64,000 nt of DNA. It comes from an uncultured virus (IMG/VR IMGVR_UViG_3300033143_005075) (taxonomy: Duplodnaviria > Heunggongvirae > Uroviricota > Caudoviricetes). Made by a program: the position numbers and the translations under genes. The notes under the pieces are model-generated. The model searched no databases, was not told the DNA's origin, and worked only from the letters and a program-made list of their open reading frames with translations. Shown piece by piece: positions 1-6,773 of this stretch. The number at the start of each line of letters is the position of its first letter. Position 1 is the stretch's first letter. The stretch is from positions 1 through 64,000 of the IMG/VR virus record IMGVR_UViG_3300033143_005075; one strand, 5' to 3'.

Positions 1-15
1 ACAGAGAAAGCATTC

Positions 16-396
16 TTGTCGCAGGTTACTGAGTTACGGAGAGAAAATGAACTCGATAGGAAACAAGCTCGAGCTTTGTATGACTATATCAAGGATAACA
101 TGCCCACGGAAACCAGCGGTGCACATTGGGTAGCTCATTGGATCATGGATAAACTTCGTGATTTCGCGGATAGCATAGGCAAACCGAACCTGTATGATGA
201 TTGGGAGTTCATCCTGATACAGAAGACTTGCGATAGCCACATACTTCATATATGGTATAAAGGTTGGCTACCGTTCATTCAAGAACTTTGCAAGGAGCTC
301 AAAATTGAATACAAAGAACCCTGGAGCCCAGAATGCTCCGAAATCTACAAAACCACTCCGGAAGACTTACATGTGCCTATTGAAGAAATACCGTGA
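16..396 (+). CDS. hypothetical protein (probably 5'-truncated by window edge)
   Basis: ORF track; co-oriented with downstream genes. Confidence 0.55.
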   Translation: MSQVTELRRENELDRKQARALYDYIKDNMPTETSGAHWVAHWIMDKLRDFADSIGKPNLYDDWEFILIQKTCDSHILHIWYKGWLPFIQELCKELKIEYKEPWSPECSEIYKTTPEDLHVPIEEIP

Positions 397-471
397 GGTT
401 GTCGCATCTTTTATGAACCTAAAGACCAAACTCCGTATGAAGTGGTTCTTAAAGAAGTATGACATCAAAGA

Positions 472-1089
472 TTGGTGGAAAGAGCTCTGGTGCAGACATC
501 ACTGGATAATCCAGATACACTGTATCACGAAAGGGAGTTACATATTCGTATGCAAAAAGTGCCAAAAACACAGTCCAAAGATATAAGGTTTACTGTCAGA
601 GGCATGTTCCGTGCCGCAAAGAAACATATGGATGCACTCCGTGCCCGAGAACACAAGATAATCCAGCAGAAACTAAAGATTGCATCGGTAGTCATCTTCT
701 CCAACGATGTCATGAGATACTTCACTTGGGAATATAGTCCTCATTTTCATAACTTCACTATCAGAACAAGACGAGCACTACCAAAGTATGTCATAGATGG
801 AATCAGACCACTTGTTAGAGACTCATTCGACTTTTCATGGTACAGCAAGAACGGAAAGGTTGAGGTAAGAGCCAGCGTTATGCCAGACACAGTAGATAAC
901 AAATGGCATCTCTTGATGCACTTCTATAAGGCTAAAGATATGCATGCATTTATAGAAGAACACAAGATCAAAGTTGTTTCAACAGAACTATTACTACAGG
1001 TCAGAAACGATCTTAAAGAGCAACTACAATTCGTCGAGGACAAAGTAAAGACAATGCGAGAACTCGAAAAACGTAAGAAAAAGACTTGA
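472..1089 (+). CDS. hypothetical protein (start uncertain)
   Basis: 205 aa ORF; N-terminus overlaps a small Cys-containing ORF ending at 586. Confidence 0.55.
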   Translation: MVERALVQTSLDNPDTLYHERELHIRMQKVPKTQSKDIRFTVRGMFRAAKKHMDALRAREHKIIQQKLKIASVVIFSNDVMRYFTWEYSPHFHNFTIRTRRALPKYVIDGIRPLVRDSFDFSWYSKNGKVEVRASVMPDTVDNKWHLLMHFYKAKDMHAFIEEHKIKVVSTELLLQVRNDLKEQLQFVEDKVKTMRELEKRKKKT

Positions 1090-1116
1090 CATGGTCAAGT
1101 ATCAGCTATATTACAT
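1086..1116 (+). promoter_or_regulatory. putative sigma70-like promoter
   Basis: TTGACA at 1086-1091 in the intergenic gap, AT-rich imperfect -10 (TATATT/TATTAC) downstream. Confidence 0.4.
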
Positions 1117-1137
1117 CACGATTAAAAGGAGAACACA

Positions 1138-1674
1138 ATGCCAGAAGAGAAGAAACCAGAAAAGATCATCGAGGGGCTGAAAAGACTCCGGGTCCTGGAG
1201 AAGCGCTGTCACGATACAGCTACTGACATTCAGGAGTATGCATCCGTGGTTTCTACCGAGATCCCTCGGTTCGAGACAAAAGAGAAACAGACCGCCAAAG
1301 TCGCTTCCCTTGTCCAATCTGTCGAAAGCATGGAACGTGAGATGCGCGGACTGAAGCTCCAGATTGATCGAACTAACATGTCCGTCAAAGTCACGATCCA
1401 AGGGAAAGAGTACTCTCTGGCTGATCTGCTGTACATCCGCAGGAAGACCAAGAACCTTGTATCGCTGGCGTACAACGCCCTGAACCTGCACGAAGCAGAA
1501 AGCCGCATGAGTCGTCTGAGCATGCGTGCTCGGGAGAACGAGAAAACACCCACTGCCATGGCGATGTTCAACGAGGACGACAAGCGCAAGAAACAGCGTG
1601 CGTGGCAGGACCTTCTGGACGAGATTGAATCGCGTTTGGAAGTGATAAATGCCACCACAAACATGGTCGACTAG
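1138..1674 (+). CDS. alpha-helical coiled-coil protein, DIP1984-like by recollection
   Basis: AAGGAG RBS; motifs KIIEGLKRL, LKLQIDRTN-x-V-x-V-x-I, SLADLL and IESRLEVINATT resemble DIP1984-type proteins. Confidence 0.6.
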   Translation: MPEEKKPEKIIEGLKRLRVLEKRCHDTATDIQEYASVVSTEIPRFETKEKQTAKVASLVQSVESMEREMRGLKLQIDRTNMSVKVTIQGKEYSLADLLYIRRKTKNLVSLAYNALNLHEAESRMSRLSMRARENEKTPTAMAMFNEDDKRKKQRAWQDLLDEIESRLEVINATTNMVD

Positions 1675-1683
1675 ACAAAAACT

Positions 1684-1999
1684 GCATCTTCTGTGATGTA
1701 AACAGAGGAAATAGAGAGCGTCCTTGACACGAACGATATCGTGATCAAACTCACTGAGGAATAGGCCTGAAACCTATATTCAGATTGGTATCGCATTAGC
1801 GATCCACGACTCAAATATAACGACTTATGACTCACGACATCACGACTCACACACTACCCAGGTGACTAAACTCGGGTTATCATGTGTCAGGACAAAAGAC
1901 TTACGACATGGTGTTCGGTGAATTCCGACACTGGAGAAATCCAGATCATGTGTAGCTACTCTCGGCATCCACACACAACTGGCTGTCATTAGAAGATGC
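1684..1999 (+). ncRNA. putative structured ncRNA (~315 nt) with internal heptamer repeats
   Basis: 1684-1698 pairs with 1984-1999 (15 bp with one bulge, including G-U pairs); 1720-1731 pairs with 1883-1893; several local hairpins; T-run at 2000-2008; no + strand ORF in the track. Confidence 0.65.
1806..1849 (+). repeat. tandem ~7-nt repeats, ACGACTC/ACGACTT-like
   Basis: ACGACTCA 1806, ACGACTTA 1820, ATGACTCA 1827, ACGACATCA 1834, ACGACTCA 1842; further AAGACTTACGACAT at 1896-1909. Confidence 0.8.
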
Positions 2000-2047
2000 T
2001 TTTTCTTTATGCTTTCAAGGAATATCACAAGTTAAAACAGAAACAAC

Positions 2048-2120
2048 AGCAGGGTGGAGCAGAGGTTAGCTTGAGTGGCTCATAACCACTAGGTCACTGG
2101 TTCGAATCCAGTCCCTGCTA
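2048..2120 (+). tRNA. tRNA-Met(CAT), initiator-like
   Basis: Full cloverleaf: acceptor AGCAGGG/CCCTGCT, D arm GAGC/GCTT, anticodon arm AGTGG-CTCATAA-CCACT, T arm ACTGG-TTCGAAT-CCAGT; no encoded CCA. Confidence 0.93.
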
Positions 2121-2121
2121 A

Positions 2122-2229
2122 ATGGAAAAATGCGAAGCACCATCAGCTAATATACTAGTTATTGCAGTAGTGGTTATAATCATCATGCCGTTCTGTCTAT
2201 TCTTAGCACTAAAGAAGGCAATAAAATGA
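2122..2229 (+). CDS. small membrane protein (35 aa)
   Basis: Read by eye: MEKCEAPSANILVIAVVVIIIMPFCLFLALKKAIK; one hydrophobic helix. Confidence 0.4.
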   Translation: MEKCEAPSANILVIAVVVIIIMPFCLFLALKKAIK

Positions 2230-2284
2230 GATCAAAAGTCCTGAAAAGTAACGATGACTTATTTGATCCATACAGAGGTGACAT

Positions 2285-2686
2285 ATGCCCGATATTGACA
2301 ACATCTTCGACCCCATCCCAGGAGAACCAATCAAAGAAGTTAAAGAAGAGAAGAAGACAGAGACGAAAGAGGAAGAAGACGCACAAGAATGGTGCAAAGA
2401 AAACCGCGCAAGAATTGAGTTCCTAGATAACGGAGTGAGAGTAACAACTAACACTTGTGGAATGGAACTCTGTAGTAGTGGCTTAAACCTTAAAATTGCT
2501 GTGTCAAACATCAGAGAAGTAATCGATCCATATAATAAAATTTGGTGTGAGATTATAGCTACACTTGAAAGATCTATGATTTCTAATGATGTAACAGCAC
2601 AAGGAGTTGATAAACTCCTCACAGCATTTAAGATAGCAGTAATGCCACGTATTCTAGAGTGGGAAAGGACAAAAAGAGATTCGTAA
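2285..2686 (+). CDS. hypothetical protein
   Basis: ORF with GAGGTG RBS; N-terminal DNIFDP motif. Confidence 0.65.
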   Translation: MPDIDNIFDPIPGEPIKEVKEEKKTETKEEEDAQEWCKENRARIEFLDNGVRVTTNTCGMELCSSGLNLKIAVSNIREVIDPYNKIWCEIIATLERSMISNDVTAQGVDKLLTAFKIAVMPRILEWERTKRDS

Positions 2687-2692
2687 CAAACT

Positions 2693-3088
2693 ATGAGAAT
2701 AAAACATGCACAAAATGATCCAAATGGCCAATTATTTGACCCCACAAGTGACAAGAAACTGAATATCAACCATCCCCACCGAAAACGAGAGAAACAAACA
2801 ACTCTCGCAGCAGTTATAAAATGGTGTGAAAATATGCAAGTACATATTAATACATCATTTAGTAGCATGGAAAGTATGAAAATTAGAATAAGTCTTAACT
2901 CAAGATCAGTAGTTGGGCCAAATATTCTTATAGCAGGACGAAGACTAATGAAAATATTCGATGATCTTCGCAAACTAAGAGAAGCATCTACTGCATTTAT
3001 AAAAACGCTACAAAACTACGGATTAGGCGACGAAGACATTATCAACGAACTAAAAACACAAATCGATCAGCTCAAAAAGGAGGATTAA
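2693..3088 (+). CDS. hypothetical protein
   Basis: ORF tiling the operon; N-terminal QLFDP motif. Confidence 0.6.
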   Translation: MRIKHAQNDPNGQLFDPTSDKKLNINHPHRKREKQTTLAAVIKWCENMQVHINTSFSSMESMKIRISLNSRSVVGPNILIAGRRLMKIFDDLRKLREASTAFIKTLQNYGLGDEDIINELKTQIDQLKKED

Positions 3089-3146
3089 TTACAATATCAG
3101 CAATGGCTCATCTGTAGCCAATATACCAAACTATGGGAGGAAACGA

Positions 3147-6100
3147 ATGACGAGTTTCAACGACCTGCACGTTGAATTCGCCACGGGAGCTTCTGCGCAA
3201 CTAAGTGTATTATTCGAAGATGGCGAAATGAAAATCGACATCACTGCGAACACCAAGCGCGGAGAGAAGAAGGCGAGAGTCGTGGCACGTGACTACGACC
3301 GAATGATCCCACCGTATTATGTAATGTTATCACCAGTATGCATCACACATGACCAAGAAGTATCCATTACACAATTTCTTAAGTACAACTGGGAAAAGAA
3401 GATGCTTCATATTCCACATGAGCATCATCGTGCTTCTACGTTCGATGGAACAGCTACCGAGAGAATACTGCAACGTGCGGTATTCAGTGATGCTGAATTA
3501 GCCAGGTTTAAACAAACCTTCGGATGGATACCAGAGAGCAGGTATCTGAACTTCAGTGAATTCAAGAAAGTTATCGCAACTACGTTACCATCGTGCTACA
3601 ATGCTGCCCGATGGCGCCTCGTAAGGAAGAATACCCTGATATACGAGAAAGTAGTCTCCAAGCTGTATCAGTTTGCATGTGAGAATATCAGTCAGGGTAT
3701 GCTTCAAAGAATAGTATCCAACGAAAACTCGCTCAGAATGGAGTATATTCCTAGCCGTCTAAAAGCTAGAGATGTAGCAGGCAAGGTTGTGCTTCCATTT
3801 GGAGCTCCAGAAAAGATTTACAATAACGAATATCTTGTCATGAGTGATACCCAACAGAGCGGAAAAGCAGGTGAGATAGTACACCTGAGTTTGGGAACCA
3901 AAATCACTAGCGATGGAGATGTCATTGCATATGGTAAGTACCCAGTAAGCTGGATCTTTGCTCACAACCCATTTCATCGACATATCTCGCCGAACAGACA
4001 AGTCGTGGCCAGATATACAACACAAGCATGTGAGTTACTCTACGATGAGCCTCCTCTCATGTTAAATCCAGAAGCAGACATGAATGATGAGCCAGAATTC
4101 CGACCCCATGGTCGAAATCTTCTGGCAGCAAGAATGGAGTATTATGGATATACTCATGAAGATGGCTGTGTCATTTCGAAAGAAGCATCTGAAGAATTCA
4201 TAACAATTGTCAAACACTATGATATCTTCAAAGCCAGAGATGCAGAATTGGCGGTACAACCTCTGCGAATCAATCCTGCAGAGATGATCCAGAAGTTCCG
4301 CTCCGCGGTGAACACTCTAGATGCATATGTAAACAGAGGACACCTCGGGAAATGCAAAGCCGGACCTATGCGATCATCTCTACAGAGAACAGCTATCGTG
4401 ACGGACATAAGAATCGAGAATGGAGACGACTCCGATGAAAACGTAAAGTATATACAAGTTGAATCGAGTTATCCCTTAAGATTATCAATCGGTGACAAAC
4501 TGGCAGATCATCATGGCAACAAGGTTATTGTGGCAAAAATCCTGCCAAGAAAAGATATGCCAAAGATAAATGATCAACCAGTAGATATCATCGTTCCACC
4601 ATATGTCGGAAAAAGGTGCTGTCCGAGTCGAATTCTTGAAGAAATGTATAGCATATATGCCCGAAAGACAACACAAGGCAAAATGCCCCTTTTGGCAAAT
4701 GACATTTCATTCAAAGATGCTACGAAGAAACTCAAAGAAGTTAAACTACCTCGAGAAGCACTAGTTGTAGACTGGACAAATGGTAGCTGGTATGAAAACG
4801 TGGGCTATGGTTGGGTTAGATACTTTCGACTTGAACAACATGCCGAATCAAAGGCTAAGGCCAGCAGGGATGTCCTAATGGACTATAGAGGAGTCGCTCC
4901 CCGCGGTAAAGGTATGTATACTCTTGCTGATGTTATGTTTAGCTTATACTCTGTTAATGCGGATGAGCTCATAAAAGAGATAGTCCTCGAAGTACGCAAA
5001 ACGCAAGCGGAAGAGGCGACAATCGATCATATGCAATGTTTCGGATTTACACTAGAAGGCGGATTTATTAAGAAATCCAGAAATGGCTTCTTGGTGCCGA
5101 AATCGCAAATGGATGGGATTGTGATCGATACAGCAATCGACCGAACAGCACTTACAGCTGAAACTGATATCGTGGAATCAGAACTACGTGAGAGAACAGT
5201 TCTAGATCCACGGCTTCTAAAGTCAAATGGCTATGTTCGAGTTCCAAAAGACATGAAGTTAATTTTAGGTGCATTCGCAAGATCGATAAATGTACCATCA
5301 TATGACCCAACCCAATTTGAGCGAAATGCACGAATGGGCCGAGATAAAGTGAAAACCGAAGATGTATATGTGTGCTCGGATGGCGAAATGTACATCAGAG
5401 TACCGAAAACGCTAAAAGCCCATATGCTCAATAATGGAAGTTTCACAGTTTCGGATGTTCAGAACGCATTGAACACATTGCTCGTATACTTCCAGAACTT
5501 CGAAAAGCACAAAGCTGGAGGATATGACAATCCATGGATAGAGCGAAGTATGATAACTCGCTCAAATCAAATGTTCAACATGGTAATGAATGGTATCGCA
5601 AAGCGTCTGTTCAGGAAGACAGGTATAATCCGAATGCTGGCATTTCCAAGAGTTATCAGAAGCTGCCATGCAGTAATATCGGGTAATCCACAACTAGACA
5701 TGACAACATGCGAGATTCCAATTCGGCTATTTAAGAAATGGTGTGCATCTGCCGATTTCCGAAAATCCTATATGATTCCGGAAGATGACTGGATGGACCT
5801 AACAACAGGATCCATTAATTCTATCCTGAAACGCCAAAAGGCAAGATGCCTAATCAGCCGAAATCCGGCACATCAGGTAAACAACGTAGCAGGCATGAGA
5901 ATGCTAGTATGGAAGGGAAACACAATTCGCTTCAATCCAGCATTAGTTACTGTTTTCGATGGTGACTTTGATGGCGATACAATGATTGCATATGCTCCAT
6001 TAGGAGCAAAGGCAAAAGCAGACTTGAGCAAAATCTGGATCGCCAAGTATTTCAACATGCTTTCTTGTTCCAAAGCCTTAAAGGGGCTCAAAATCTCTCC

Positions 6101-6773
6101 CCGCGAAAATCTCATGAAGCGGAAAGTAGACTTTCGGTTTTCAATGTCCACTGGTACCAGCGAAAACTGGAGAGATATCCGCGACAGATATAGCAAAGAG
6201 AAAAATGCTGACTTCAACAGGTATATGAAGGGAAGAGTCAGCATTGAGCACATAGTTAAAGGTCAGGCAGCTGCAGCAGCCGAGTTCAGATTTATGAAAG
6301 AAGGTGCTGCAAATGCCGGTAACATTGGTAATATCATGCGAAATATCATGGTGCAAGATCATGGTAGAGTAGGGATTACATATGCAAATGATCTCTACCA
6401 TTCACTCGCACAGCCTGCTCTAAACAGTAAGAATAGTGAAGGGCAAAAGGCTACTCTAGATATAGTAACAAATATGCTAAGGTCACTGGAAGCAGTCCCA
6501 AGACAGGAACTGCAGGACGAGCTCTCAAAGCTCGTGCGCCTGCCAGAGACCGCGCAGAAGGTGGTCGAAAGCATGTTTAAAGGTGGTAAGTGGCAGTCCG
6601 GCGTCAGCGTAATATGCGCAAGGACAACACCAGTTGCTCATTCCATAATGAGCGGAGGAGTTATAAGTCTCCATCGAGCAGCGGCTCAAGGTGATGACGG
6701 GAGCATTGTAAGTCTCTTCCTTCAAATGGCTTCAAGAAGCAACACAATGGTGATGTCGGATACGTCGAAGTAA
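3147..6773 (+). CDS. single-chain two-barrel DNA-directed RNA polymerase (beta-like + beta'-like fusion)
   Basis: beta-like motifs YGYTHEDGCVIS and GDKLADHHGNK; beta'-like motifs AVISGNP, LISRNPA and catalytic FDGDFDGD; GGGAGG RBS. Confidence 0.88.
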   Translation: MTSFNDLHVEFATGASAQLSVLFEDGEMKIDITANTKRGEKKARVVARDYDRMIPPYYVMLSPVCITHDQEVSITQFLKYNWEKKMLHIPHEHHRASTFDGTATERILQRAVFSDAELARFKQTFGWIPESRYLNFSEFKKVIATTLPSCYNAARWRLVRKNTLIYEKVVSKLYQFACENISQGMLQRIVSNENSLRMEYIPSRLKARDVAGKVVLPFGAPEKIYNNEYLVMSDTQQSGKAGEIVHLSLGTKITSDGDVIAYGKYPVSWIFAHNPFHRHISPNRQVVARYTTQACELLYDEPPLMLNPEADMNDEPEFRPHGRNLLAARMEYYGYTHEDGCVISKEASEEFITIVKHYDIFKARDAELAVQPLRINPAEMIQKFRSAVNTLDAYVNRGHLGKCKAGPMRSSLQRTAIVTDIRIENGDDSDENVKYIQVESSYPLRLSIGDKLADHHGNKVIVAKILPRKDMPKINDQPVDIIVPPYVGKRCCPSRILEEMYSIYARKTTQGKMPLLANDISFKDATKKLKEVKLPREALVVDWTNGSWYENVGYGWVRYFRLEQHAESKAKASRDVLMDYRGVAPRGKGMYTLADVMFSLYSVNADELIKEIVLEVRKTQAEEATIDHMQCFGFTLEGGFIKKSRNGFLVPKSQMDGIVIDTAIDRTALTAETDIVESELRERTVLDPRLLKSNGYVRVPKDMKLILGAFARSINVPSYDPTQFERNARMGRDKVKTEDVYVCSDGEMYIRVPKTLKAHMLNNGSFTVSDVQNALNTLLVYFQNFEKHKAGGYDNPWIERSMITRSNQMFNMVMNGIAKRLFRKTGIIRMLAFPRVIRSCHAVISGNPQLDMTTCEIPIRLFKKWCASADFRKSYMIPEDDWMDLTTGSINSILKRQKARCLISRNPAHQVNNVAGMRMLVWKGNTIRFNPALVTVFDGDFDGDTMIAYAPLGAKAKADLSKIWIAKYFNMLSCSKALKGLKISPRENLMKRKVDFRFSMSTGTSENWRDIRDRYSKEKNADFNRYMKGRVSIEHIVKGQAAAAAEFRFMKEGAANAGNIGNIMRNIMVQDHGRVGITYANDLYHSLAQPALNSKNSEGQKATLDIVTNMLRSLEAVPRQELQDELSKLVRLPETAQKVVESMFKGGKWQSGVSVICARTTPVAHSIMSGGVISLHRAAAQGDDGSIVSLFLQMASRSNTMVMSDTSK

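What the first reader, a model, noticed from the sequence alone, without database searches (positions are those of the whole stretch)
1086..2010. Coiled-coil protein gene followed by a ~315 nt closed ncRNA with 7-nt tandem repeats: candidate ribonucleoprotein system
Seen: a TTGACA element, one helical 178 aa gene, then an RNA starting 9 nt after the stop codon. Its ends pair (1684-1698 with 1984-1999) and a T-run follows. Inside are a long-range stem (1720-1731 with 1883-1893) and hairpins at ATAGG/CCTAT, ATCGC/GCGAT, GTGTTCGG/CCGACAC and CCAG...CTGG. An apparently unpaired A/C-rich tract carries five ACGACT(C/T)-like units at ~7-nt period, with two more at 1896-1909. Inference: protein and RNA are co-transcribed, and the periodic units are binding sites for multiple copies of the protein, as in an RNA-scaffolded oligomer or a type III toxin-antitoxin-like or sponge pair. 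It matches no RNA class I can name. The DIP1984-like resemblance of the protein is from memory.
Basis: partly seen in the sequence, partly recalled or inferred. Interest (0 to 1): 0.85.

Follow-up and report, generated by a model that had tools for sequence, protein, structure and literature searches.

The report
Widespread phage protein–RNA module, undescribed
A small helical phage protein is almost always encoded next to a roughly 300-base, intricately folded RNA with evenly spaced three-letter repeats, a pairing found in many phages that carry their own tRNA genes (apparently including the classic phage T5) and seemingly never described.

Summary
Window 1684-1999 is one member of a conserved family of structured RNAs that lies beside homologues of the 178-aa gene (1138-1674). 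It was found in 76 of 80 viral-contig loci and 21 of 31 metagenome or genome loci, always on the gene's strand.

- **Structure:** Covariation supports a closing helix P1, a central pseudoknot and a 3' stem-loop domain. A 5' pseudoknot is seen by eye and by script.
- **Repeats:** A-N-G triplets recur every 7-8 nt (AAG spacing of 7 nt: 171 observed against about 10 expected).
- **Not a known RNA:** No Rfam 15 family matches.
- **Protein:** It has the fold of DIP1984 (PDB 3kdq, Z 12.6), function unknown, and is modelled to self-associate.
- **Reach:** The wider protein family (phrog_1491, mislabelled "tail fiber protein") occurs in 749 cultured-phage records including T5. All 12 phages I inspected have an unannotated gap of 257-504 nt after the gene.

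Best reading: a new phage ribonucleoprotein in which protein copies bind the triplet arrays, much as HutP or TRAP do. Binding, transcription and function are untested.

The parts
1084..1100 (+). Palindrome ACTTGAC-ATG-GTCAAGT containing TTGACA (1086-1091). TATATT lies 15 nt downstream (1107-1112). Possible promoter or operator; not tested.
   Evidence: Sequence. The sigma-70 consensus scan did not list it (spacer of 15).
1138..1674 (+). Gene for a 178-aa helical protein with a DIP1984/DUF6847-like fold, part of the wider family phrog_1491. AAGGAG lies 6 nt upstream of the ATG.
   Evidence: ORF. 292 representatives at E<=1e-3. AF2 pLDDT 96.7. 3kdq Z 12.6. phrog_1491 E 1.5e-7.
1684..1698 (+). 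P1, 5' strand of the closing helix.
   Evidence: In every MFE fold of 21 relatives. 11 of 13 pairs show compensatory changes and 90.5% of cells are paired.
1698..1704 (+). Conserved junction GUAAACA (type A GUAAA[A/C]A; type B GAGAUAAAAAC).
   Evidence: Nearly invariant columns in alignments A3, A4 and A5.
1719..1743 (+). Pseudoknot PK-A. Stem CGU (1719-1721) pairs with ACG (1733-1735). Loop CACGA (1728-1732) pairs with UCGUG (1739-1743).
   Evidence: Read from the sequence. The same arrangement, with different sequences, appears in most type A and many type B relatives. Support is moderate because MAFFT misaligns this stretch (helices 2-3).
1761..1777 (+). Hairpin P3 (AUAGG / CCUAU).
   Evidence: An equivalent hairpin occurs in several relatives. 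This is the variable region, replaced by a whole tRNA in many type B RNAs.
1787..1805 (+). Hairpin P4 (AUCGC-AUUA-GCGAU). Variable and not conserved.
1806..1848 (+). Repeat array I: A-N-G units starting at 1806 (ACG), 1820 (ACG), 1827 (AUG), 1834 (ACG) and 1842 (ACG). Spacings are 14, 7, 7 and 8 nt.
   Evidence: Aligned with the AAG units of relatives. Family-wide periodicity.
1850..1877 (+). Hairpin P5 (1850-1852 with 1862-1864) and pseudoknot PK-B (ACCC 1856-1859 with GGGU 1874-1877).
   Evidence: P5: 4 of 4 pairs compensatory, 94% paired. PK-B: 4 of 4 compensatory, 87.8% paired. In the near-identical contig L001 base 1853 is C, which adds a C-G pair.
1882..1909 (+). Repeat array II: A-N-G units at 1882 (AUG), 1889 (AGG), 1896 (AAG) and 1903 (ACG). 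Spacings are 7, 7 and 7 nt.
1911..1931 (+). Hairpin P6 (GUGU-CGG / CCG-ACAC).
   Evidence: A hairpin sits at this position in most relatives with differing sequences (helix 8: 5 of 5 pairs with compensatory changes but only 64% paired in the MAFFT alignment).
1933..1985 (+). 3' domain: GGAGAAAUCC, P7 (CCAG 1941-1944 with CUGG 1979-1982), inner helices P8 and P9, then GCUG.
   Evidence: P7 is 97.6% paired with A-U/G-C/U-A exchange at its third pair. Conserved AAAUCC and GGCUG columns.
1987..1999 (+). P1, 3' strand.
2000..2010 (+). U-rich tail (TTTTTCTTTAT) after P1. Possible transcript end.
   Evidence: A U-run after P1 is seen in several relatives but not all. The terminator scan does not cover stems with a 300-nt loop.
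2048..2120 (+). tRNA-Met (CAU), the only tRNA in the window. It gives the context: the module sits among phage tRNA genes in most loci.
   Evidence: ARAGORN. Rfam 64.9 bits. tRNA-rich neighbourhoods.

Best explanation
The 178-aa gene (1138-1674) and the roughly 316-nt RNA (1684-1999) are the two parts of a conserved phage ribonucleoprotein module that sits among phage tRNA genes.

Shown:
- The RNA is a real structured family. It has a closing helix P1, an A-rich junction, a central pseudoknot and a conserved 3' stem-loop domain. A 5' pseudoknot is seen by eye and by script.
- It carries single-stranded arrays of A-N-G triplets every 7-8 nt: 5+4 in the window, about 4+4 in type A relatives, and about 10 in a row in type B.
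- It is syntenic with the gene across very divergent phages.

Inferred:
- The DIP1984-fold protein self-associates.
- Several copies bind the evenly spaced triplets, in the way the unrelated oligomers HutP and TRAP read repeated triplets.
- The pseudoknotted scaffold holds the two arrays in a fixed geometry.
- The particle acts in trans.

The target is unknown. From its context I favour a role in RNA- or tRNA-centred host takeover or counter-defence. The context is tRNA, tmRNA and RNase P RNA islands, whole tRNAs embedded in many family members, occasional RNA-repair neighbours, and the T5-type tRNA region being an anti-defence island.
For: RNA is real:
- z -3.46 for the fold.
- RNAalifold on 13 sequences: 16 of 22 pairs with compensatory changes.
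- 21 type A sequences: covariation score 0.384 against 0.160 in shuffles (0 of 500 reach it) and at most 0.123 when partners are slid. P1 has 11 of 13 pairs compensatory, P5 4 of 4, PK-B 4 of 4.
- 37 type B sequences: score 0.400 against 0.170 (0 of 500); P1 has 10 of 12 pairs compensatory.

Repeats:
- In 61 distinct RNAs, AAG-AAG spacing of 7 nt occurs 171 times and of 8 nt 107 times, against about 10 each in shuffles.
- Unit consensus is CAAGAYU for type A and YAAGGYU for type B.
- The window and its closest relatives mix ACG, AUG, AGG and AAG.

Pairing with the gene:
- 76 of 80 viral loci, 53 of them within 60 nt of the stop, and never on the opposite strand.
- 21 of 31 metagenome or genome loci; 5 of the other 10 are cut by a contig end.
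- 12 of 12 RNA-positive loci from motif-first scans carry the gene.
- The RNA lies upstream in 6 loci and is separated from the gene by an ORF or by more than 300 nt in 4. It therefore behaves as its own gene, not as a 3' UTR.

Protein:
- pLDDT 96.7.
- Four-copy model ipSAE 0.65 against 0.00 for the best of 3 controls. That mark was reached by 20 of 30 proteins solved as pairs of one chain and 1 of 23 solved as single chains. The runs share at least 80% of contacts and the partner's pLDDT is at least 81.

Precedent:
- Hexameric HutP reads three XAG motifs on each of two surfaces, at two XAG-rich sites (PMC2425495, passages read).

Context:
- tRNAs, tmRNA and RNase P RNA in the loci.
- tRNA embedded inside many type B RNAs.
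- An ~8-kb region of T5 and SP15 that holds a tRNA-Tyr gene is an anti-defence island (bioRxiv 10.1101/2023.03.15.532788, passages read).
Against: - No direct evidence that the RNA is transcribed or that the protein touches it.
- The complex model covers protein alone. It used four copies, unlike the calibration, and may echo the solved relative 3kdq.
- The protein family's invariant residues are mostly polar or acidic (E12, Q51, Q60, D64, N80, E146, E168, N171), not the basic patch expected of an RNA binder.
- 4 of 80 viral loci, and 5 of 26 uncut metagenome or genome loci, have the gene without a detectable RNA. Two of these have a tmRNA in its place, and three have arrays of tRNA cassettes.
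- No neighbouring protein gene is conserved that could point to a pathway.
- The anti-defence paper does not mention T5.085 or ORF83.
Confidence: 0.5

Rival explanations
1. The RNA works without the neighbouring protein as its ligand. The triplet arrays would titrate or recruit a host factor, such as a global RNA-binding protein, a ribonuclease or the ribosome. The phage protein would be a chaperone, a processing factor or simply a linked gene.
For: - Multi-site decoy RNAs are an established kind (CsrB/RsmZ; recalled).
- The units are A/U-rich and single-stranded.
- The protein lacks an obvious basic signature among its invariant residues.
- Some loci have the gene without the RNA.
Against: - Gene and RNA stay adjacent and co-oriented across protein identities down to about 23%.
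- All 12 motif-first RNA loci have the gene.
- The middle base of the triplet drifts (AAG to ACG, AUG, AGG) in one clade of the protein tree. That is easier to explain with a co-evolving phage partner than with a conserved host factor.
Confidence: 0.2
2. The RNA is mainly a carrier or precursor scaffold for phage tRNA expression and maturation. The closing helix and leader/trailer domains would control release or stability of an embedded tRNA, with the protein as a cofactor. Members without a tRNA, like the window's, would be relics.
For: - A tRNA or tRNA-like module lies inside the RNA, between the 5' pseudoknot and the repeats, in more than 20 type B loci.
- The loci sit in tRNA clusters.
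- Three RNA-less loci carry tRNAs wrapped by other conserved inverted arms.
Against: - All 21 type A RNAs, and several type B RNAs (for example L031, L036, L032), have no tRNA yet keep every other element under covariation.
- The anticodons of the inserts are heterogeneous.
- The repeats and the 3' domain have no obvious role in tRNA processing.
Confidence: 0.12
3. A toxin-antitoxin-like pair of type III flavour: the protein is toxic and the repeat RNA neutralises it.
For: - A small protein gene beside a repeat-bearing RNA.
Against: - The gene comes first and the RNA second in 70 of 76 paired loci, the reverse of ToxIN (recalled).
- Units are 7-8 nt within a complex fold, not tandem units of about 36 nt.
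- There is no match to ToxN/AbiQ-type models or to any PADLOC model for the window's protein.
- Occurrence is in lytic phage tRNA islands.
Confidence: 0.04
4. It is not an RNA gene. The region would be a DNA-level element (iterons, an origin, a promoter array) or only the 3' UTR and terminator of the protein gene.
For: - Direct repeats at a fixed period.
- A U-run after P1.
- T5's record annotates a promoter at the end of the gap.
Against: - The compensatory changes follow RNA pairing rules, including G-U, and include two pseudoknots.
- The element keeps one strand relative to the gene and can sit upstream or apart from it.
Confidence: 0.03

Closest known systems
HutP-hut leader and TRAP-trp leader (oligomeric proteins that read repeated RNA triplets)
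   Same: - Evenly spaced triplets with a conserved G (XAG for HutP; A-N-G or AAG here), in single-stranded RNA and in two separate arrays.
- HutP reads three XAG on each of two surfaces (PMC2425495, passages).
- The protein here is modelled as self-associating.
   Different: - The protein folds are unrelated (DIP1984-type helical bundle).
- HutP and TRAP act in cis on leader terminators of cellular operons. Here the arrays are embedded in a closed, double-pseudoknotted RNA of about 300 nt, encoded as its own gene in phages.
- Binding has not been tested.
- The 4-nt spacer of HutP sites is recalled, not seen in the passages I read.
CsrB/RsmZ-type multi-site protein-titrating RNAs
   Same: One RNA with many short repeated motifs that could hold several copies of a small dimeric protein.
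   Different: - CsrB sites are GGA in hairpin loops and the partner gene is elsewhere (recalled).
- Here the units are single-stranded, the scaffold is conserved, and the candidate partner gene is adjacent.
- There is no Rfam match.
Type III toxin-antitoxin systems (ToxIN, CptIN, TenpIN)
   Same: A protein gene next to a repeat-bearing RNA, on mobile or phage-related DNA.
   Different: - Opposite gene order.
- Repeat unit of 7-8 nt rather than about 36 nt.
- A complex tertiary fold.
- No toxin-family match.
tmRNA-SmpB
   Same: - RNA ends paired, pseudoknots flanking a single-stranded stretch, and a small dedicated protein.
- Found in the same phage RNA islands. A true tmRNA takes the RNA's place after the gene in L044 and L057 and lies just upstream in L040.
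   Different: - No T-arm or CCA end formed by the termini, and no tag reading frame.
- ARAGORN and Rfam do not call it a tmRNA.
- The protein is helical, not the SmpB barrel (recalled).
- L040 has both RNAs.
GOLLD / ROOL large phage-associated RNAs
   Same: Ornate structured RNAs of unknown function, often near tRNA genes in phages (PMC12286853: abstract seen in the listing; the tRNA association is recalled).
   Different: - Those are 600-800 nt, form RNA-only homo-oligomers and are Rfam families.
- This one is about 300 nt, has a dedicated neighbouring protein gene and matches neither.
DIP1984 / DUF6847 ('septicolysin') proteins, PDB 3kdq
   Same: Same fold (Z 12.6, rmsd 4.4 A, 150 of 152 residues aligned). 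PF20935 matches 33 of 83 family members.
   Different: - The window's protein is below both curated cut-offs (19.5 against 27 bits; 17 against 70 bits).
- No function is known for the family, so the likeness explains nothing yet.
- Whether bacterial members have an RNA partner was not tested.

Membership tests
DIP1984 / DUF6847 (PF20935, NF038048) | Score above the curated profile cut-off | tested here: not met
   Pfam 19.5 bits against a cut-off of 27. NCBIfam 17 bits against 70. 33 of 83 relatives match PF20935 at E<=0.01.
DIP1984 / DUF6847 (PF20935, NF038048) | Same three-dimensional fold as the solved member 3kdq | tested here: met
   VIA-align Z 12.6, rmsd 4.4 A, 150 residues aligned; next unrelated row 8.9. 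Foldseek E 5e-3, TM 0.53/0.61.
phrog_1491 (annotated 'tail fiber protein') | Profile match | tested here: met
   E 1.5e-7 for the window's protein. 81 of 83 relatives match.
phrog_1491 (annotated 'tail fiber protein') | Being a tail fibre (virion location, fibre-like fold) | tested here: not met
   The model is a compact helical bundle of 178 aa. The genes sit in tRNA islands, not tail modules. Virion presence was not testable.
Type III toxin-antitoxin (ToxIN-like) | RNA repeats upstream of the toxin gene; tandem units of about 36 nt that the toxin cuts | tested here: not met
   The RNA is downstream in 70 of 76 paired loci. Units are 7-8 nt inside a folded scaffold. Defining features are recalled.
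Type III toxin-antitoxin (ToxIN-like) | Toxin of the ToxN/AbiQ endoribonuclease family | tested here: not met
   No PADLOC model matches the window's protein at E<=0.01. The fold is that of 3kdq.
tmRNA (RF00023) | tRNA-like domain from the paired ends, tag reading frame, covariance-model match | tested here: not met
   ARAGORN finds no tmRNA in the window. There is no RF00023 match at E<=10 in 1-5000. True phage tmRNAs in L040, L044 and L057 score 116-144 bits.
Any Rfam 15 family (including GOLLD, ROOL, raiA, CsrB/Rsm) | Covariance-model match | tested here: not met
   Nothing in 1675-2010 at E<=10. Only tRNA, tmRNA and RNase P in 20 + 10 + 5 + 6 related loci.
HutP/TRAP-type triplet-repeat recognition (works-like, not membership) | Periodic triplets in single-stranded RNA | tested here: met
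   Spacing of 7 or 8 nt is 171 and 107 against about 10 expected.
HutP/TRAP-type triplet-repeat recognition (works-like, not membership) | Oligomeric protein that binds the triplets | not testable with these tools
   Only self-association of the protein could be modelled. RNA binding needs EMSA or a structure.
HutP or TRAP protein families | Sequence or fold homology | tested here: inconclusive
   No Pfam match to either, and neither is listed among the fold matches. Absence from a list does not exclude.

The most novel reading that the evidence does not exclude
The module is a previously unrecognised class of phage ribonucleoprotein that is common in tRNA-bearing phages, model phage T5 included. 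Its RNA would be the active part: either a catalytic or guide-like scaffold that acts on tRNAs or on host defence RNAs, or a decoy that captures host tRNA-targeting nucleases. The protein oligomer would load onto the A-N-G arrays. If so, a long-overlooked component of phage translational takeover or counter-defence would become directly testable in T5.
Probability: 0.15. Interest if true: 0.95.

Novelty: categorically new. Interest (0 to 1): 0.86.

Why it matters
- **Scale:** A structured RNA of about 300 nt with two pseudoknots, a periodic triplet array and a dedicated partner gene has apparently gone unannotated in hundreds of sequenced phages. The equivalent gap is conserved in 440 T5-like records, and none of the 60 rows listed carries an RNA feature. 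The partner gene is widely mislabelled "tail fiber protein".
- **New handles:** It gives the DIP1984/DUF6847 fold its first candidate ligand. It also adds a new RNA class to the tRNA, tmRNA and RNase P islands of large phages.
- **Testability:** Relatives appear to exist in T5, SP15, PVP-SE1 and Acinetobacter T4-like phages. Transcription, binding, structure and phenotype can therefore be tested in ordinary laboratory systems.
- **Possible payoff:** That includes testing against libraries of defence systems, since the T5 tRNA region is already known to hold anti-defence genes.

Tried and rejected
Searches that found nothing or too little:
- Public sequencing runs for window 1100-2130: none was listed, and no RNA holder was listed. 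Expression therefore stays untested.
- Earlier findings of this scan: nothing to show, by sequence or by words.
- Close DNA relatives in cultured phages: only tRNA matches.
- tblastn against cultured phages with P0002, the L031 protein and the L024 protein: no match. Only the more distant P0089 bridged to cultured phages.
- nhmmer profiles of types A and B do not detect the RNAs of Acj9 or vB_CsaP_009. Their membership rests on reading the sequence and on folds.
- An uninterrupted closing helix longer than in every shuffle was found for only 3 of 12 cultured-phage gaps (T5, PVP-SE1, My1). The other 9 equal or fall below the shuffle maxima in that crude test.
- A conserved protein neighbour: Pfam scan of 98 of the 156 neighbouring ORFs picked in 27 loci gave no recurrent family. 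There were scattered RNA ligase, RlaP, metallophosphatase and macro domains.
- PADLOC: no match for the window's protein; two marginal hits (E about 3e-3) for relatives.

Ideas considered and dropped:
- Anti-Shine-Dalgarno pairing, T-loop mimicry, tRNA-Lys anticodon pairing and RNase E site mimicry by the repeats. All were considered from the unit consensus and dropped because none fits both AAG and ACG/AUG units.
- A link between T5.085 and the anti-retron genes of SP15. The preprint names ORF71-73 and ORF75, whereas the homologue is locus tag 083, and the text has no "ORF83".
- The resemblance of ACGACTCAC to the T7 promoter core (recalled), set aside as coincidence.

Technical limits:
- A full-length covariance model was not attempted. 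The alignment exceeds 400 columns and the model would exceed the calibration limit.
- Alignment A2 was too diverse for the metagenome and genome scans.

Literature searches for a prior description: no listed paper holds DUF6847, DIP1984, T5.085 or phrog_1491. Only the top-ranked rows of each search were shown. Older T5 papers outside the library, and preprint supplements, could not be seen.
Full report
**What the window is**

All long ORFs near the finding lie on the + strand. They encode phage functions:
- a 1208-aa protein with both Rpb2 and Rpb1 RNA-polymerase domains
- a ClpB-like ATPase
- a DNA polymerase
- an anaerobic ribonucleotide reductase
- helicases

The same sequence lies on a 234-kb IMG/VR contig. 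The window's own record is a 120-kb virus fragment. The window is therefore part of a large phage of unknown host.

**Checking the observation**

- TTGACA (1086-1091) sits in a palindrome.
- The 178-aa ORF runs 1138-1674.
- Nine bases after its stop, 1684-1698 pairs with 1987-1999, followed by TTTTT.
- The 336-nt stretch folds to -92.8 kcal/mol, against -75.4 +/- 5.0 for dinucleotide shuffles (z -3.46; 0 of 100 as stable).
- The four named hairpins are present.

Two details do not hold up.
- The exact word ACGACTY is not enriched in the window as a whole (13 found, 10.0 +/- 3.0 expected). Three copies do cluster within 43 nt.
- The long-range stem 1720-1731/1883-1893 is not kept in relatives: 44.5% of cells paired against 45.3% in shuffles, and 201 of 500 shuffles reach its covariation score.

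**The RNA is a conserved family**

The protein has 292 cluster representatives at E<=1e-3 in a library of 1.8 billion. A profile-guided scan of viral contigs gave 104 relatives, of which 80 loci were kept. Reading the DNA after the stop codons showed the same architecture again and again, in very different sequences.

Two nhmmer profiles recover it:
- "type A", seeded from 13 sequences including the window
- "type B", seeded from 12 more distant ones

The tally, at E<=1e-5 and at least 100 profile positions:

| Set | Loci | With RNA on the gene's strand | Details |
|---|---|---|---|
| Viral contigs | 80 | 76 | 70 downstream (53 within 60 nt of the stop, 13 within 61-300 nt, 4 further); 6 directly upstream |
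| Metagenome and genome | 31 | 21 | all downstream; 5 loci cut by a contig end; 5 lack the RNA despite at least 350 nt of room |

- No hit is on the opposite strand.
- The four viral loci without the RNA are L023 (a partial hit only), L044, L045 and L057.
- Some loci are duplicates; there are 61 distinct RNAs.

Searching the other way round, with two RNA motifs and no protein information, gave 38 and 36 exact-match loci. Of these, 7 and 5 were confirmed as the RNA by the profiles, and all 12 have the gene beside them. Ten of the 12 were contigs already in the first set, and the rest of the matches look like chance hits.

**Structure**

| Test | Sequences | Result |
|---|---|---|
| RNAalifold | 13 | closing helix, central hairpin and CCNG/CNGG helix; 16 of 22 pairs with compensatory changes |
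| My annotation on a plain MAFFT alignment | 21 type A | 78.4% of cells paired against 62.8% in shuffles; covariation 0.384 against 0.160 (0 of 500 shuffles reach it) and at most 0.123 with partners slid by 1-3 columns |
| Same approach | 37 type B | P1 has 10 of 12 pairs compensatory and is 90% paired; overall 0.400 against 0.170 (0 of 500) |

By helix in type A:
- P1: 11 of 13 pairs compensatory, 90.5% paired
- P5: 4 of 4 compensatory, 94% paired
- PK-B, the pseudoknot between the P5 loop and a downstream G-run: 4 of 4 compensatory, 87.8% paired
- P7: 97.6% paired

A second pseudoknot, PK-A, sits near the 5' end. It is a short GC stem whose loop pairs just downstream. It is visible by eye in nearly all type A sequences and in many type B sequences, each with a different sequence. 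A scripted search recovers it above shuffles on average (12.3 against 9.6; 22 of 61 sequences beaten by at most 1 of 30 shuffles). In the MAFFT alignment it is misaligned and scores poorly (helices 2-3). I rate it probable, not proven.

In the window, PK-A is CGU/ACG (1719-1721/1733-1735) plus CACGA/UCGUG (1728-1732/1739-1743).

The only difference between the window and contig L001 within the RNA is A1853 against C, which creates one more C-G pair in P5.

**The repeats**
- Across 61 distinct RNAs, AAG occurs 11.7 times per RNA against 7.4 in shuffles.
- Successive AAGs are 7 nt apart 171 times and 8 nt apart 107 times, against about 10 each by chance.
- The unit is CAAGAYU in type A (125 units) and YAAGGYU in type B (285 units).
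- Type A has two arrays of about four units either side of PK-B. Type B has about ten in a row.
- The window is the extreme case of a clade in which the middle base drifts. Its units are ACG, ACG, AUG, ACG, ACG and then AUG, AGG, AAG, ACG. Its closest relatives (45-47% protein identity) mix ACG, AUG and AAG.
- The conserved word is therefore A-N-G with a 4-5-nt spacer.

**tRNA inside the RNA**

In more than 20 type B loci, ARAGORN or Rfam calls a tRNA inside the RNA's boundaries. It lies between PK-A and the repeats, where type A has variable hairpins P3 and P4. The anticodons are diverse. The loci also carry many free tRNAs, a phage RNase P RNA (L041/L042, 112 bits) and true tmRNAs (L040, L044, L057).

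**Not a known RNA**
- At E<=10, no Rfam 15 model touches 1675-2010.
- In 41 related loci, only tRNA, tmRNA and RNase P appear.

**The protein**
- AlphaFold2 with 83 relatives gives pLDDT 96.7. The model has five helices and one beta-hairpin.
- The only solved structure that stands out is 3kdq, an uncharacterised Corynebacterium diphtheriae protein: Z 12.6, 150 residues aligned, next row 8.9; Foldseek E 5e-3.
- PF20935 (DUF6847) matches 33 of 83 relatives, but the window's protein is under both curated cut-offs.
- A four-copy model passed. The score is 0.65 against 0.00 for the best of 3 controls. That mark was reached by 20 of 30 proteins solved as pairs of one chain and 1 of 23 solved as single chains. 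The runs agree in at least 80% of contacts, and the partner's pLDDT is at least 81.
- The job differs from the calibration, and a solved relative exists, so the pass may be from memory.

**Reach into cultured phages**
- 81 of 83 relatives match phrog_1491, which is annotated "tail fiber protein".
- A distant representative links by tblastn to Acinetobacter phage Acj9 and Cronobacter phage vB_CsaP_009.
- Acj9p146 finds 117 phage records.
- PVP-SE1 gp082 finds 749 records, including T5-like phages.
- hhalign of the 83-sequence profile against T5.085 gives 74.6% probability, E 2.6e-5, over 93 columns. This is moderate support for homology.

In all 12 distinct cultured phages I opened, the gene is followed by an unannotated gap of 257-504 nt, mostly among tRNA genes. 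The phages are Acj9, vB_CsaP_009, PVP-SE1, Lactococcus 949, Bacillus BCP8-2, T5 (also seen in T5_ev212 and SP15), My1, Jenst, phiPsa347, Vibrio Bennett, SA002 and Akh-2.

- The T5 gap is conserved in 440 records. No RNA feature appears in any of the 60 rows listed.
- No Rfam family matches the six gaps tested.
- In T5 the gap shows the family's hallmarks when read directly: a 21-bp closing helix, a stem whose loop pairs downstream, about ten AAAG units, and a 3' hairpin followed by GGCU.
- Closing helices of 21, 19 and 22 bp in T5, PVP-SE1 and My1 exceed all 20 shuffles and share no sequence. For the other nine gaps this crude test is not decisive.
- The type A and B profiles do not reach these RNAs. 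I therefore treat the cultured-phage RNAs as probable members, not proven ones.

**What it most likely is**

Shown:
- a conserved, structured RNA gene
- a conserved partner gene
- periodic single-stranded triplets

Inferred:
- The protein, as an oligomer, binds the triplet arrays.

The nearest mechanistic precedent is HutP, a hexamer that reads three XAG motifs on each of two faces at two separate sites (PMC2425495, passages read). TRAP is similar (recalled). The drift of the middle base within one protein clade fits a co-evolving phage partner better than a fixed host factor.

Function is open. The module's home among tRNA, tmRNA and RNase P genes, the embedded tRNAs, and scattered RNA-repair neighbours point to RNA-centred takeover or counter-defence. 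So does the report that an ~8-kb region of T5 and SP15 holding a tRNA-Tyr gene is an anti-defence island (bioRxiv 10.1101/2023.03.15.532788, passages read). That paper does not mention this gene.

**What counts against this reading**
- There are no expression data, as no run could be listed.
- RNA binding has not been tested.
- The invariant residues are polar or acidic rather than basic.
- Nine loci have the gene but no detectable RNA.
- No conserved third gene exists.

**Novelty**

Eight literature searches turned up no description of the RNA, of T5.085, of phrog_1491 or of DUF6847/DIP1984 function. The library lacks most older T5 papers, and only top-ranked rows were shown. On present evidence this is a new RNA class with a dedicated protein, unlike any named ribonucleoprotein.

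Noticed in passing
L090 560-2007; L103 2005-3501; L107 1966-3497: In three metagenome loci the gene's homologue is followed not by the RNA but by an array of cassettes. Each cassette is bounded by conserved imperfect inverted arms that wrap either a tRNA or a short hairpin. This may be another structured-RNA family tied to the same protein.
   Followed up: partly
L044 3656-4084; L057 3634-4105; L040 2321-2676: True phage tmRNA genes (Rfam 116-144 bits). They lie directly after the gene where the RNA is missing (L044, L057), or just upstream of the gene where the RNA is present (L040).
   Followed up: partly
L041 3606-3868 (= L042 5876-6138): A short (263-nt) bacterial-type RNase P RNA encoded by a phage contig inside a tRNA cluster, 112 bits against a gathering score of 100.
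   Followed up: no
Type B RNAs, e.g. L033 3585-3658, L058 3605-3677, L066 3813-3888, L075 1497-1572, L071 3814-3887: Many of the tRNAs embedded in the RNA are called with A at the first anticodon position (AUU, AAU, ACU, AGG). L034 is called with UCA (opal-reading). These are unusual for bacteria (the usual anticodon rules are recalled).
   Followed up: no
L043, about 3590-3680: The tRNA-like part seems circularly permuted: T-arm, acceptor 3' strand, GCCA, a UUUU loop, then acceptor 5' strand, D-arm and an anticodon-like arm. Read by eye; not folded or tested.
   Followed up: no
window 3147-6773: A single 1208-aa protein carries both an Rpb2 domain 6 (beta-like, E 1.6e-19) and an Rpb1 domain 2 with DFDGD (beta-prime-like, E 8.4e-11). 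This is a fused minimal multisubunit-type RNA polymerase.
   Followed up: no
window 1101-1700 against its flanks: The gene is richer in G+C (0.47-0.55) than the DNA on either side (0.33-0.42). This hints at separate ancestry for the module.
   Followed up: no
window 1853: The only difference from the 234-kb contig L001 within the RNA (A here, C there) lies in hairpin P5. In L001 it creates an extra C-G pair.
   Followed up: partly
AY543070 40848-41566 (L195 3439 onwards): The T5 record annotates 'rnaX, stable RNA with unknown functions' about 1.5 kb beyond the gap discussed here. It is a different, already noted T5 RNA.
   Followed up: no
Cultured-phage records under: RefSeq and many GenBank records name this helical protein of about 190-215 aa in tRNA islands 'tail fiber protein'. 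The name looks like a propagated error.
   Followed up: partly
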